The notes under the pieces are model-generated. The model did not search any database. It saw nothing but the letters and a program-made list of their open reading frames with translations, and was not told the DNA's origin. This document shows, piece by piece, positions 29,723 to 32,397 of a stretch of DNA of 64,000 bases (positions within the stretch are counted from its first letter, which is position 1; every line of letters starts with the position of its first letter). Location of the stretch: the NCBI GenBank assembly GCA_019058445.1, contig JAHPZA010000004.1:128001-192000 (forward strand), read 5' to 3'. This stretch comes from Promethearchaeota archaeon (GTDB taxonomy: Archaea; Asgardarchaeota; Lokiarchaeia; Sigyniarchaeales; SOKP01). The position numbers and the translations under genes were made by a program.

Positions 29723-29900
29723 GATATTAAATTGAATCTAAAGTGAACTACTACTACCTAAAGGTAGTAGCTTCCTACGAGTCCGCACCTACTTTTGCAG
29801 TTGGCTTGACTGTATGTCGTAGAAAACCATTCCACTTTTGAAGGAATAGTTCCTCGTCCACAGAGGATTCATGTGATAGGAAATCATATTCGCCTAATTC
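29723..29900 (-). ncRNA. Predicted omegaRNA/reRNA overlapping the tnpB 3' end, with guide from flanking DNA
   Basis: Expected from TnpB biology. Hairpins are visible in the tnpB tail and right end; the guide would be TTTAGATTCAATTTAATATC (29742-29723). The 5' boundary is a guess. Confidence 0.6.
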
Positions 29901-31186
29901 TTTTGCTTTCAAGAATTTGACCATGATATTGACCGCTGAATTCAAGTCTCGGTCAATCTGATTCCCACAATCGCACCTAATAAATCTTTCGTAGATAGCT
30001 CTCTTTGAGAGCTTTCCACACTTACAACAGGCTTTCGTCGTCTTATCCTCACCAATTCTTATTACTCTTTTACCTAACTTTTCAGCTTTATAGGTCAAGA
30101 ATTCGGCAAATCGCGACATGAAACCCGCATTATAAACAGAGTGATTAAGTGTCTTTTTTGCTTTGGTCTTCTTAGCGTTTCCCGTTCCCTTCTTTTTCTT
30201 AGCCATTTATTTTACGGATAATTTTCCGATGATAATGGTATTTGCTTTGGTGTTCTCAACAACCTGCTTGGATAACCAATGTTGGTAATCTTTTAGCTGG
30301 GTTGTTTGTTTTCGCTTCATTTTTATTAGTTTGCTATTGTACCAATGCCATTTCTTACTCTTTTTCTTGCAGTGATCTCGTTTGGATTGCACTTGTTCAA
30401 GCTTTTTTTTCCAATAGAGATCTGCTCTTCTATGTCTGAATGAAATAAATTTACCATGAAGGTTTACTCCTGCTGTTTGAGAAATGCCTAAATCTAAAGC
30501 TTGATAAAGACCGTTATCTTTATATTTTGGCGGAAAAATTTCGTAGGTAATGGAAATGAACCAGCGCTTAAGTGAATCTAAAAATATTTCCACTTGCTTT
30601 ATAGTTTCTTTTGGAATAAGCTCTTTCGGTAATCCAAACGATAATACTTCTTTAGAGGGATGCTTATGAGAAAAATTGATAGTAGAATTTTCTATTATGA
30701 ATCCTGATTGATTGTAACTTAATGTTGTGAAGTATTTTTTGCTTTTGAAACGTGGCGATCTTGCTTTTTTATCTCCATTTTTCCAAAGAGCTGTAAATGA
30801 TTTATAGTTTGCATCAAGCTTCTTTAAGATCATTTGGAGTACTTTTGAATATACCCATTTATATTCCGGATATTTTTCTTTGATAACCGGTAATTGGTTT
30901 TGCTGATGGGTATAATTAATGAATTTTCGTTCTATCTTGGGTTTTTTCTTATTCTTTTTCCAATTTTCAATCCGTTCTGCTAACGCAAAATTATAAATAA
31001 GGCGACATTTTTCTGACAAATCCCACAATACTTTAACTTGTGAATCTGTTGGAAAAATTGGTAATTTTTGCGTTAGGTTCATAGTATGTTAGAATAATCT
31101 AATCGAAATCTATAAAAACGAGAGTTCGATGGTTTAATGAATTTTTAATTGACCACCCCCTAAAGAGGAGTGGCCTTCTTTTCTAT
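29743..31186 (-). mobile_element. Non-autonomous IS200/IS605-family (IS1341-like, tnpB-only) element
   Basis: Related subterminal hairpins at 29751-29770 (ctactacctaaaggtagtag) and about 31153-31173 (ccaccccctaaagaggagtgg). The minus-strand right end finishes ...GTTCAC at 29743. The left boundary is approximate (after TTAAC). No tnpA. Confidence 0.85.
29775..31082 (-). pseudogene. tnpB: RNA-guided endonuclease TnpB with one in-frame nonsense codon (30207-30209)
   Basis: Two abutting same-frame ORFs join to about 435 codons: CRLIYNFAL, PRFKSK, ALDLG (RuvC-I), CCKCG...CDCG zinc finger, DRDLNSAVNI (RuvC-III). Confidence 0.92.
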
Positions 31187-31279
31187 GTTAAAAAACTAAT
31201 TTTATAATCTTAAATAAAACAGACTATTATAATTTGTATAAAATTTAAATTAAATATCAAAAAATTGGAGTAAATTAAA

Positions 31280-32397
31280 ATGAAGAAACCTATTGCTATT
31301 CTTGGTGGTGGAAATTCAATTTAACTATAAATTGAACCACATACGGCGGTCACCAAATGGCTTTAGATTTAACTTTAAGGGGATTTGACGTAAACTTTTG
31401 TGAGCATCCTGATTTTAAAGAGTCATTTAGAAACACACTTGAAACAAAAGTAATTGAAAATACAGGAATGATTGAAGATAAGGCTAAGATTCATAAGTTG
31501 ACATTAGACTTTAAAGAGGCATTGGAAGATGTTGATATTATTTACCTTGTTATTCCTGCTATTGCCCATGAAACGTTTTTTGATAATATTATCCCGCATC
31601 TTAGAGATGGGCAATTAGTCGTTATTTGGGCGGGTGATGCGGGAGCGCTCCGACTTGCCAAAAGATTAAGAGAAGAGGCACCGAATAAGAAGATAAGTAT
31701 CGCAGAAACTAATACTTTACCTTATGGAACTAGGCTTATTGGTCCTTCTAAAGTTGATCTGTTTGTTACAGCAAAAAAGATGTTATTTTCCACTTTTCCT
31801 GCGAATGAGACGGAAGAGAAACTAGAACTTGTTAAAGATACTTTTCCTGTTTTAGAACCTATTGATAATATTTTATCAGTATCATTTAGTAATCCTAATC
31901 CTACTGTCCATCCTCCCGGTACTCTATTAAACATCGGACGGATTCAGTGGTCGAAAGGTGATTTCTATCTATATCGGGAAGGAATAACAGAGGCTCCATC
32001 GCGAATTATCCGAAAAGTTTATGATGAAACTTTAGCGGTGGCTAAAGCACTTGGGTTCAGAATGCGAGAATTTGAAGATGAGCAGTTTAGAAATCCCTGT
32101 AGTGTTATGTGCGTAGATTTTTGGGCTCCATTTGATAAAGGAGGGATTGTGGCTAATATGAGAGGGCCCTCAAGTATATATAATAGGTATATTACCGAAG
32201 ATCTACCTTATGGGTTGGTACATAGATCCCAATTAGGAGATTTAGTAAACGTCCCTACACCTATTATTGATTCTATAATCAATTTAGGATCAGGTATCTG
32301 TGAAAGTAATTTCTGGGAAGGCCGAACTTTAGTAGACCTGGGTTTAGATGGGATGACTAAAGAGCGAATTATGGAATATCTCCAAAAAGGATCTTAA
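31280..32397 (+). CDS. NAD/NADP octopine/nopaline (opine) dehydrogenase family protein, spliced: join(31280..31313,31343..32397), 362 aa
   Basis: Spliced N-terminus MKKPIAILGGGNGGHQMALDL supplies the Rossmann motif missing from the 31357 ORF; ETNTLPY, NPNPTVHP, FYLYREG, RYITEDLPYGL. Confidence 0.88.
31314..31342 (+). other. 29-nt bulge-helix-bulge intron in a protein-coding gene
   Basis: GUGG(31308-11) AAA [UUCAAUUUA-ACUA-UAAAUUGAA] CCAC(31337-40) AUA C: 4-bp helix, two 3-nt bulges, perfect 9-bp intron stem. Cutting after nt 2 of each bulge restores the frame. Confidence 0.87.

What the first reader, a model, noticed from the sequence alone, without database searches (positions are those of the whole stretch)
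31280..31359. tRNA-type bulge-helix-bulge intron interrupting a metabolic protein-coding gene (opine dehydrogenase)
Seen: the called ORF (31357) lacks its NAD-binding N-terminus. Upstream, ATG 31280 reads MKKPIAILGGGNSI* (TAA 31322-24). The RNA folds as GUGG-AAA-[UUCAAUUUA ACUA UAAAUUGAA]-CCAC-AUA-C: a 4-bp helix, two 3-nt bulges and a perfect 9-bp intron hairpin. It is closed outside by G-C/U-G, or alternatively by UUGGUG/CACCAA. Established: the archaeal splicing endonuclease EndA cuts BHB bulges after their 2nd nt and RtcB ligates. Applying that rule without adjustment removes 31314-31342 and gives GGA AAC GGC GGT CAC CAA ATG, i.e. ILGGGNGGHQMA, an intact Rossmann motif in frame with the ORF. 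Archaeal mRNA BHB introns are best known from crenarchaeal cbf5; I know of none in an Asgard catabolic gene but cannot check the literature. Inference: this lineage splices mRNAs with the tRNA machinery, so expression depends on splicing, and similar genes would be misannotated as truncated or pseudogenes.
Basis: partly seen in the sequence, partly recalled or inferred. Interest (0 to 1): 0.95.

Follow-up and report, generated by a model that had tools for sequence, protein, structure and literature searches.

The report
tRNA-type mini-intron splitting an Asgard enzyme gene
A 29-base insert that breaks an opine-dehydrogenase-family gene of an Asgard archaeon has the shape that the archaeal tRNA-splicing enzyme cuts. 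Several other genes of the same genome carry look-alike inserts, so this lineage very probably splices ordinary messenger RNAs, which in print is shown for a coding sequence only in the cbf5 gene.

Summary
ATG 31280 opens an 11-codon mini-exon. A 29-nt insert (31314-31342) stops the frame. Removing it gives MKKPIAILGGGNGGHQMALDL..., which matches the 362-aa intron-less orthologs residue for residue.

- **Structure:** the RNA can form a 4-bp helix (GUGG/CCAC), an AAA bulge, a perfect 9-bp hairpin and an AUA bulge. Cuts after the second bulge base give exactly that junction. The 3' side is relaxed: 2 outer pairs, or a 10-nt loop.
- **Second copy:** an 83%-identical ortholog from other metagenomes has the same 29-nt insert at the same site. 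Its changes fall in unpaired bases or keep pairing.
- **Gene is alive:** it is single-copy and under purifying selection (dN/dS about 0.05).
- **Real DNA:** the insert is present in contigs from four sequencing runs.
- **Same genome:** a CO-dehydrogenase gene, an EF-2 paralog, a GH38 gene, a chelatase gene and an Fe-S enzyme gene carry 30-32 nt inserts of the same design.
- **Limits:** no RNA data were available. RtcB is present, but only a non-catalytic EndA paralog is in this assembly.

Earlier notes of this scan reported similar introns on other DNA, including other parts of this genome. Verdict: very probably a real spliced mRNA intron, and a new member of the cbf5-type class.

The parts
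31267..31270 (+). GGAG, a Shine-Dalgarno-like site 9 nt before ATG 31280
   Evidence: Read from the sequence. The second intron-bearing allele has GGAGG before its TTG start. No such site precedes ATG 31357.
31280..31313 (+). 5' mini-exon, 34 nt (MKKPIAILGGG plus the first base of the Asn codon)
   Evidence: It matches the N-termini of the 362-aa orthologs P0001-P0008.
31308..31311 (+). 5' strand (GUGG, exon) of the central 4-bp helix H, paired with 31337-31340
31312..31314 (+). 5' bulge AAA; predicted cut between 31313 and 31314
   Evidence: One search leaves these three bases unpaired. The cut rule (between the 2nd and 3rd bulge residue) is stated in PMC2738675.
31314..31342 (+). 29-nt intron, holding the in-frame TAA at 31322-31324 and shifting the frame by 2
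   Evidence: The boundary can slide by +1 with the same product, or by +2 with AAT in place of AAC.
31315..31336 (+). Intron hairpin h': 9 perfect pairs (31315-31323 with 31328-31336), loop ACUA
   Evidence: Unique in the genome at up to 3 mismatches.
31337..31340 (+). 3' strand (CCAC, intron) of helix H
   Evidence: It reads CCAU in the second allele, so G-C becomes G-U.
31341..31343 (+). 3' bulge AUA; predicted cut between 31342 and 31343
   Evidence: The minimum-energy fold places it in a 10-nt internal loop.
31343..32397 (+). 3' exon including the stop codon (opine-dehydrogenase-family body)
31296..31307 (+). 5'-exon bases that pair with 3'-exon bases 31351-31360 (CUAUU/AAUGG and UGGUG/CACCA), a distal closing helix
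   Evidence: The same pairing is possible in the second allele.

Best explanation
Window 31314-31342 is a 29-nt archaeal bulge-helix-bulge (BHB) intron inside the coding sequence of a single-copy opine-dehydrogenase-family gene of an Asgard archaeon (NCBI label of congeners: Promethearchaeota).

Proposed steps:
1. The gene is transcribed with the insert.
2. The pre-mRNA pairs exon GUGG with intron CCAC next to a 9-bp intron hairpin.
3. The tRNA-splicing endonuclease (EndA; in Asgard archaea the broad-specificity two-subunit type) cuts after the second base of each bulge.
4. RtcB joins the exons.
5. The ribosome then reads a 362-aa enzyme with an intact GxGxxG NAD-binding loop.

Unspliced RNA can give only a 14-residue peptide, or a 346-aa protein without that loop.

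Shown: the anatomy, the exact repair, conservation, selection, and recurrence in other genes. Inferred: that cutting and joining happen, and by which enzymes.
For: 1. **Exact repair.** Removal gives MKKPIAILGGGNGGHQMALDL, matching P0001-P0008 with no residue gained or lost. Congeners G003, G002, G008 and G027 and seven metagenome loci have the uninterrupted GGN GGN GGN AAY GGN GGN.

2. **Geometry.** A 4-bp helix, 3-nt bulges and a 9-bp inner helix are present. The published cut rule (PMC2738675) lands on the boundary that the orthologs define.

3. **A second allele.** P0009, on contigs from two JGI metagenomes, is 83% identical in protein and 76% in DNA. It has a 29-nt insert at the same site. 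Of 5 differences, 4 lie in the 7 unpaired bases and 1 in the 22 paired bases. That one turns G-C into G-U (Fisher p 0.007).

4. **The gene is alive.**
- dN/dS against intron-less orthologs is 0.044-0.057, the same as among intron-less pairs (0.058-0.060).
- There is one copy in the genome.
- A Shine-Dalgarno-like site is kept before the mini-exon in both alleles.

5. **Real DNA.** Contigs from four runs span the insert without a gap.

6. **The same design elsewhere in this genome.**
- CO dehydrogenase: 32 nt, 8-bp outer and 8-bp inner helices. The Pfam Prismane profile runs 3-457 in one piece and 458-512 in the other.
- EF-2 paralog: 30 nt, 9-bp hairpin. GTP_EFTU runs 2-33 and 48-187.
- A GH38 gene, a chelatase gene and an Fe-S enzyme gene are repaired by the same rule.
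- The EF-2 paralog insert recurs in G006 and G021, with an A-U to U-A swap in G006.

7. **Machinery.** RtcB is present. Same-genus genomes carry a catalytic EndA with Tyr, His and Lys. Asgard EndA is reported as the (alpha-beta)2 type with the L1 insert that goes with broad substrate range (PMC5829648).
Against: - No RNA evidence of any kind could be obtained.
- In this assembly the only EndA homolog has Phe and Ser where the M. jannaschii enzyme has the catalytic Tyr and His. The catalytic paralog of the congeners was not found (genome 92.6% complete).
- The 3' half of the motif is weak. It has 2 outer pairs, one of them G-U. In the second allele the fold that contains helix H is 2.9 kcal/mol above the minimum.
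- Only two copies of this intron are known, and no double compensatory change has been seen in it.
- Genome-wide, BHB-like motifs that fuse open frames are no more frequent than in controls with shifted cut sites. The case therefore rests on individually validated genes.
Confidence: 0.82

Rival explanations
1. The insert is a dead scar. A small hairpin-forming insertion inactivated the gene, the RNA is never spliced, and the locus is a young pseudogene.
For: The frame is broken and automatic gene calls are truncated. A decayed TnpB (IS605 OrfB) gene lies 200 nt upstream. No RNA data are available.
Against: - The hairpin occurs once in the genome at up to 3 mismatches.
- The same insert persists in an allele whose synonymous sites are saturated relative to this one, and both keep 346-codon frames, start sites and ribosome-binding sites.
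- dN/dS equals that of intact orthologs.
- A random insertion would not bring a CCAC that pairs with the upstream exon at exactly BHB spacing.
- Five other genes, among them an EF-2 paralog present in all 41 genomes searched, carry the same design.
Confidence: 0.1
2. The insert is removed from the RNA, but by other enzymes than EndA and RtcB (for example another endonuclease that recognises the hairpin, or another ligase).
For: The catalytic EndA subunit was not found in this assembly. The 3' site is not a clean 3-nt bulge in the minimum-energy fold.
Against: The spacing (4-bp helix, 3-nt bulge, cuts after the 2nd bulge base) is the EndA signature and predicts the junction without adjustment. 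All nine same-genus genomes searched have EndA homologs, and eight of them have two. The missing gene is most simply an assembly gap.
Confidence: 0.04
3. The ribosome skips the insert (programmed translational bypassing, as in phage T4 gene 60). The hairpin and the nearby stop codon would act as the hop signal.
For: A stable hairpin and a stop codon lie just after a run of Gly codons.
Against: No matching take-off and landing codons give the conserved GGGNGG. A hop from GGU to the downstream GGU would delete four conserved residues. The CCAC pairing and the bulge spacing would have no role. Bypassing is not known in archaea (own knowledge).
Confidence: 0.02
4. The 29 nt are an assembly or sequencing artefact.
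For: The window comes from a metagenome-assembled genome.
Against: Contigs from four runs (one study) cover the site with 0-1 differences and no gap. Two JGI metagenomes hold a diverged allele with the same insert.
Confidence: 0.01

Closest known systems
BHB intron of the cbf5 (pseudouridine synthase) pre-mRNA in Crenarchaeota (Watanabe 2002; Yoshinari 2006; Yokobori 2009, PMC2738675)
   Same: A short intron inside a coding sequence. It is often a relaxed BHB, with predicted cuts between the 2nd and 3rd bulge residues. The hosts have a hetero-oligomeric EndA. Its distribution is patchy, with gain and loss, and the genes are miscalled as frameshifted.
   Different: A different gene (a metabolic dehydrogenase, not an RNA-modification enzyme) and a different phylum (Asgard). 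The intron lies 11 codons into the gene. Here it is one of several such introns in one genome. cbf5 splicing is shown by cDNA; this one is not.
Non-canonical BHB introns of archaeal tRNA genes, very abundant in Asgard archaea (Marck and Grosjean 2003; bioRxiv 10.64898/2026.10.13.758758)
   Same: The same motif grammar (h-B-H-B-h') with half of the motif built from exon sequence, the same presumed enzymes, and repeated gains.
   Different: The host RNA is an mRNA, so the junction must also keep the reading frame. No tRNA fold helps the enzyme to dock. No sequence similarity to any other place in the genome.
BHB intron in the 5' UTR of Haloferax volcanii HVO_1309 (PMC7714728)
   Same: An mRNA cut by the tRNA-splicing endonuclease, shown there by circRNA-seq and in vitro.
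   Different: That intron lies in the untranslated leader (46 nt), so the protein does not depend on it. Here the coding sequence is unreadable without removal.
Unconventional HAC1/XBP1 mRNA splicing in eukaryotes (Ire1 cut; RtcB ligation in animals; own knowledge, RtcB role noted in PMC8718801)
   Same: A very short intron (26 nt in XBP1) is removed from an mRNA by a protein endonuclease, the exons are joined by RtcB, and the reading frame changes.
   Different: A different endonuclease and a different recognition motif (paired stem-loops, not a BHB). It is a regulated stress switch. No regulation is shown here.

Membership tests
Archaeal BHB (EndA/RtcB-spliced) intron | [quoted passage not shown] | tested here: met
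   GUGG/CCAC with AAA and AUA at the right spacing. The 5' bulge and the helix are in the minimum-energy fold. The 3' bulge needs two weak outer pairs and is otherwise part of a 10-nt loop, so the form is relaxed (HBh'-like).
Archaeal BHB (EndA/RtcB-spliced) intron | Flanking helices: inner h' (intron) and outer h (exon) | tested here: inconclusive
   h' is 9 perfect pairs. h is only G-C plus U-G, or a distal 5+5-bp exon-exon helix beyond a loop.
Archaeal BHB (EndA/RtcB-spliced) intron | Cuts between the 2nd and 3rd bulge bases give a junction that restores the gene | tested here: met
   Removing 31314-31342 gives GGGNGGHQ in frame, identical to the orthologs.
Archaeal BHB (EndA/RtcB-spliced) intron | Structure kept in homologous copies | tested here: met
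   The second allele keeps the stem. 4 of its 5 changes are in unpaired bases and 1 is G-C to G-U. Only two copies exist, and no double compensatory change has been seen in this intron.
Archaeal BHB (EndA/RtcB-spliced) intron | The host encodes the splicing endonuclease and RtcB ligase | tested here: inconclusive
   RtcB was found (574 bits). The only EndA homolog in the assembly lacks the catalytic Tyr and His. The catalytic paralog is present in congeners but not found here. The genome is 92.6% complete.
Archaeal BHB (EndA/RtcB-spliced) intron | Spliced RNA, or the excised (circular) intron, is observed | not testable with these tools
   No RNA run was listed for this DNA.
cbf5 intron family of Crenarchaeota | The intron sits in cbf5, at the codon of the catalytic Asp | tested here: not met
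   The host gene belongs to the Octopine_DH family. This intron works like the cbf5 intron but is not a member of that family.
Transposon end, MITE or other repeated insertion | Further copies in the genome | tested here: not met
   One match in 4.6 Mb at up to 3 mismatches. The second allele has no TnpB gene beside it.
Programmed translational bypass (T4 gene 60 type) | Matching take-off and landing codons that give the conserved protein | tested here: not met
   By reading the sequence, no codon pair yields GGGNGGHQ.
NAD/NADP octopine/nopaline dehydrogenase family (host gene) | C-terminal Octopine_DH domain, plus an N-terminal GxGxxG Rossmann loop | tested here: met
   PF02317 at E 7.7e-37. 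GGGNGG is present only after removal of the insert.

The most novel reading that the evidence does not exclude
These 29-32 nt inserts are a population of mobile mini-introns. They spread among protein-coding genes, and between diverged alleles, in this Asgard family.

Supporting observations:
- The two carriers of the opine-dehydrogenase intron are not sisters. The window's gene sits in a supported clade of intron-less genes, and no bootstrap tree unites the two carriers.
- They nevertheless share a 39-nt identical run across the 5' exon and the start of the intron, in genes only 76% identical.
- The EF-2 paralog carries such inserts at four different sites in different genera.

If true, the closest prokaryotic relatives of eukaryotes have routine, enzyme-based mRNA splicing with ongoing intron gain.
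Probability: 0.3. Interest if true: 0.9.

Novelty: new member of a known kind. Interest (0 to 1): 0.72.

Why it matters
In the papers I could search, splicing of an archaeal coding sequence by the tRNA machinery is documented only for cbf5 in Crenarchaeota. A 2020 paper states this outright (PMC7714728).

Here the same mechanism appears in ordinary metabolic and translation genes of an Asgard archaeon, the group closest to eukaryotes. That has three consequences:
- Gene calls in these genomes are systematically truncated or marked as broken.
- Expression of such genes would depend on EndA and RtcB, which opens a possible layer of control.
- Whether mRNA splicing by protein enzymes predates the spliceosome in the eukaryotic stem lineage becomes directly testable.

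Tried and rejected
- **RNA evidence.** No RNA holder was listed in two run searches, so expression and splicing could not be examined.
- **Genome-wide statistic.** 28,518 strict BHB-like motifs were found. The number that fuse two open frames (455) equals the number in controls with shifted cut sites (438-484). Subsets behave the same way. The motif alone therefore does not find introns, and each case needs homology support.
- **Paralog check of junction peptides.** This was noisy. For example, a sulfatase hit at window about 13493 is an intact gene.
- **Other short homologs.** P0045, P0106 and P0091 (345-347 aa) are miscalled starts with a continuous N-terminus, not further intron carriers.
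- **Acetyl-CoA synthetase lead.** I left it unresolved.
- **Other RNA classes.** No Rfam family and no tRNA overlaps the site.
- **Transposon-end idea.** Rejected, because the hairpin occurs only once in the genome.

Full report
**Observation.** ATG 31280 opens MKKPIAILGGGNSI and stops at TAA 31322-31324. The long ORF starts at ATG 31357 (346 aa) and matches only the C-terminal Octopine_DH domain (PF02317, E 7.7e-37). Between them lie these elements:
- GUGG, 31308-31311
- AAA, 31312-31314
- a perfect 9-bp hairpin (31315-31323 with 31328-31336, loop ACUA)
- CCAC, 31337-31340
- AUA, 31341-31343

GGAG at 31267-31270 precedes ATG 31280. Nothing similar precedes ATG 31357.

**What the insert interrupts.** A protein search gave 242 relatives. 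The closest (75-92% identical) are almost all 361-365 aa and begin M-x-KPIAILGGGNGGHQMALDLTLRGF. Removing 31314-31342 (29 nt) from the window gives MKKPIAILGGGNGGHQMALDL..., 362 aa, with no residue gained or lost. Orthologous DNA has the uninterrupted Gly-Gly-Gly-Asn-Gly-Gly codons in four related genomes, three of them from the same genus (L003-L006), and in seven metagenome loci. The insert boundary can slide by +1 with the same product, or by +2 with a synonymous Asn codon. The boundary predicted by the BHB rule is one of these.

**Organism.** Two same-genus records are titled Promethearchaeota archaeon and Candidatus Hermodarchaeota archaeon. The organism is therefore an Asgard archaeon.

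**Structure.** The order of elements is: exon outer strand, helix H 5' strand (exon), 3-nt bulge, intron hairpin, helix H 3' strand (intron), 3-nt bulge, exon. This is the order found in a tRNA intron at position 37/38 (established knowledge). The cut rule, between the 2nd and 3rd bulge residue, is stated in PMC2738675. It gives exactly 31314-31342.
- The minimum-energy fold of 31296-31362 contains H, the AAA bulge and the hairpin (-15.8 kcal/mol, z -2.3).
- The 3' side is relaxed. Either there are two outer pairs (G-C and U-G), or there is a 10-nt internal loop closed by an exon-exon helix (UGGUG/CACCA and CUAUU/AAUGG). The strict drawing alone scores -7.6 kcal/mol.
- Relaxed forms are what the two-subunit EndA with the L1 insert is reported to accept, and Asgard archaea are reported to have that type (PMC5829648).
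- Motifs this strict are rare: 64 in 9.2 million strand positions for an inner stem of at least 9 bp and a length of at most 35.

**A second carrier.** P0009 is 346 aa and 83% identical. It lies on contigs from two JGI metagenomes and has a 29-nt insert at the same site.
- The stem is unchanged.
- The loop reads AUAC instead of ACUA.
- CCAC becomes CCAU, so G-C becomes G-U.
- The 3' bulge reads AAA.
- The first outer pair becomes G-U.

Within the intron, 4 of 5 differences fall in the 7 unpaired bases and 1 in the 22 paired bases (Fisher p 0.007). The same cut rule gives GNGG in frame. In this allele the fold containing H lies 2.9 kcal/mol above the minimum.

**The gene is alive.**
- Pairwise dN/dS between the window gene and intron-less orthologs is 0.044-0.057, the same as among intron-less genes (0.058-0.060).
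- Between the two carriers, synonymous sites are saturated (pS 0.75) while pN is 0.10.
- The genome has a single copy.
- Both carriers keep a start codon and a ribosome-binding site before the mini-exon.

**Real DNA.** Contigs from four sediment-metagenome runs of one study cover the insert with 0-1 differences and no gap. One of these runs may be the source of the assembly. The hairpin occurs only once in the 4.6-Mb genome at up to 3 mismatches, so it is not a repeat or a transposon end.

**History.** In a maximum-likelihood tree, the window gene sits in a supported clade (95/85) with intron-less P0001-P0003. P0009 lies outside that clade, and no bootstrap tree unites the two carriers. Yet the carriers share a 39-nt identical run (31286-31324) across the 5' exon and the start of the intron. 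The longest identical run in the 1038-nt body is 23 nt. All 9 third-codon positions of the mini-exon agree, against 50% gene-wide (p about 0.002). Closer intron-less relatives agree at only 1-4 of those 9 positions. Two readings fit:
- Lateral spread of the intron together with flanking exon sequence.
- Selection on the mini-exon because it forms half of the motif and the distal closing helix.

I cannot decide between them.

**The same design elsewhere in this genome.** A scan for strict BHB geometry whose removal fuses two open frames ranked two cases at the top, and both were validated with Pfam.
- CO dehydrogenase gene (contig C6, minus strand, intron 396833-396802, 32 nt, 8-bp outer and 8-bp inner helices). 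The Prismane profile runs 3-457 in the 5' piece and 458-512 in the 3' piece.
- EF-2 paralog (C10, minus strand, intron 684145-684116, 30 nt, 9-bp hairpin, in-frame stop). The GTP_EFTU profile runs 2-33 and 48-187.

The same rule also restores three further motifs:
- HWDRE|WYLTFNEF in a GH38 gene.
- MNPEE|GELRPQ in a chelatase gene.
- RCSI|CKWIPQ in an Fe-S enzyme gene, where a paralog aligns across the junction at 78% identity.

The EF-2 paralog insert recurs in G006, shifted by 6 nt, with one A-U to U-A swap in the stem. It also recurs in G021, a different genus. Other 30-nt inserts sit in the P-loop of the same gene in G012 and G013. As a statistic the scan shows no excess over controls with shifted cut sites. 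The evidence is therefore the validated cases, not the count.

**Machinery.** RtcB is present. The one EndA homolog in the assembly (202 aa) aligns with M. jannaschii EndA. It has Phe and Ser at the positions of the catalytic Tyr and His, and it keeps the Lys, so it looks like the structural subunit. Eight of the nine same-genus genomes searched have two paralogs, one of them with Tyr, His and Lys. That catalytic paralog was not found in this assembly (completeness 92.6%). ARAGORN finds only 23 tRNA genes, most of them with introns. This fits the heavily interrupted tRNA genes reported for Asgard archaea.

**Rivals.**
- A dead insertion scar is unlikely, given the conservation, the selection, the uniqueness of the hairpin, the built-in pairing with the exon, and the recurrence in other genes.
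- Translational bypassing has no codon pair that yields the conserved sequence.
- An artefact is excluded by independent contigs.
- Removal by other enzymes cannot be excluded, but the spacing is the EndA signature.

**Known and new.** PMC7714728 (2020) says that, apart from its own 5'-UTR case, the only mRNA BHB intron reported is in cbf5. PMC2738675 says introns in other protein genes were predicted but not confirmed. Five searches of the paper library found no report for Asgard mRNAs. Earlier notes of this scan describe similar introns in other genomes and in other parts of this genome. I re-derived the EF-2, GH38, chelatase and Fe-S cases myself. I did not check the gyrB case, or the RNA evidence claimed for another Asgard genome.

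**Limits.** There is no RNA or protein evidence. Only two copies of this intron are known. The catalytic EndA is missing from the assembly. The 3' splice site is non-canonical.

Noticed in passing
window 29775-31082 (minus strand): A TnpB (IS605 OrfB) gene is split by one in-frame TAA (...GKLSVK*MAKKKK...). It also has Gly-Lys where I recalled Glu-Asp of the RuvC-II motif in typical TnpB proteins. It is probably a decayed copy, and it is not linked to the intron.
   Followed up: partly
G000:C6:396802-396833 (minus strand; locus L035): A 32-nt fully canonical BHB insert (8-bp outer helix, 4-bp H, 8-bp inner helix) splits a CO-dehydrogenase (Prismane family) gene between ...AAAPEY and MEQKA.... 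The two pieces match Pfam profile positions 3-457 and 458-512.
   Followed up: yes
G000:C10:684116-684145 (minus strand; L036); relatives L045, L051, L061, L063: A 30-nt BHB insert with an in-frame stop splits an EF-2 paralog between QMTD and SDDEEQERGITI. Relatives carry 30-nt inserts at this site, 6 nt downstream, or at two P-loop sites. That makes at least four intron positions in one gene across genera.
   Followed up: partly
G000:C9 near 6955 (plus strand); G000:C9 minus strand (GELRPQ site); G000:C6:752439 (plus strand): Inserts of 30, 30 and 31 nt in a GH38 gene, a chelatase gene and an Fe-S enzyme gene. Removal by the BHB rule restores the conserved motifs.
   Followed up: partly
L065, L066, L073, L077, L078 (CO-dehydrogenase orthologs in G003, G007, G018, G017, G013): Each match contains one in-frame TAG or TAA within the part aligned to the 5' exon. 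These may be further in-frame mini-introns at other positions.
   Followed up: no
G000:C9:770313-770921 (L033:1219-1827): The only EndA homolog in the assembly lacks the catalytic Tyr and His. The catalytic paralog seen in same-genus genomes is missing from this MAG.
   Followed up: partly
window 31286-31324 compared with L023: A 39-nt identical run spans the mini-exon and the start of the intron, between alleles that are only 76% identical overall. It means either lateral spread or a structural constraint on the exon.
   Followed up: partly
whole genome G000: ARAGORN in intron mode finds only 23 tRNA genes in 4.6 Mb, 19 of them with introns. This suggests that many tRNA genes are too interrupted to be detected.
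   Followed up: no
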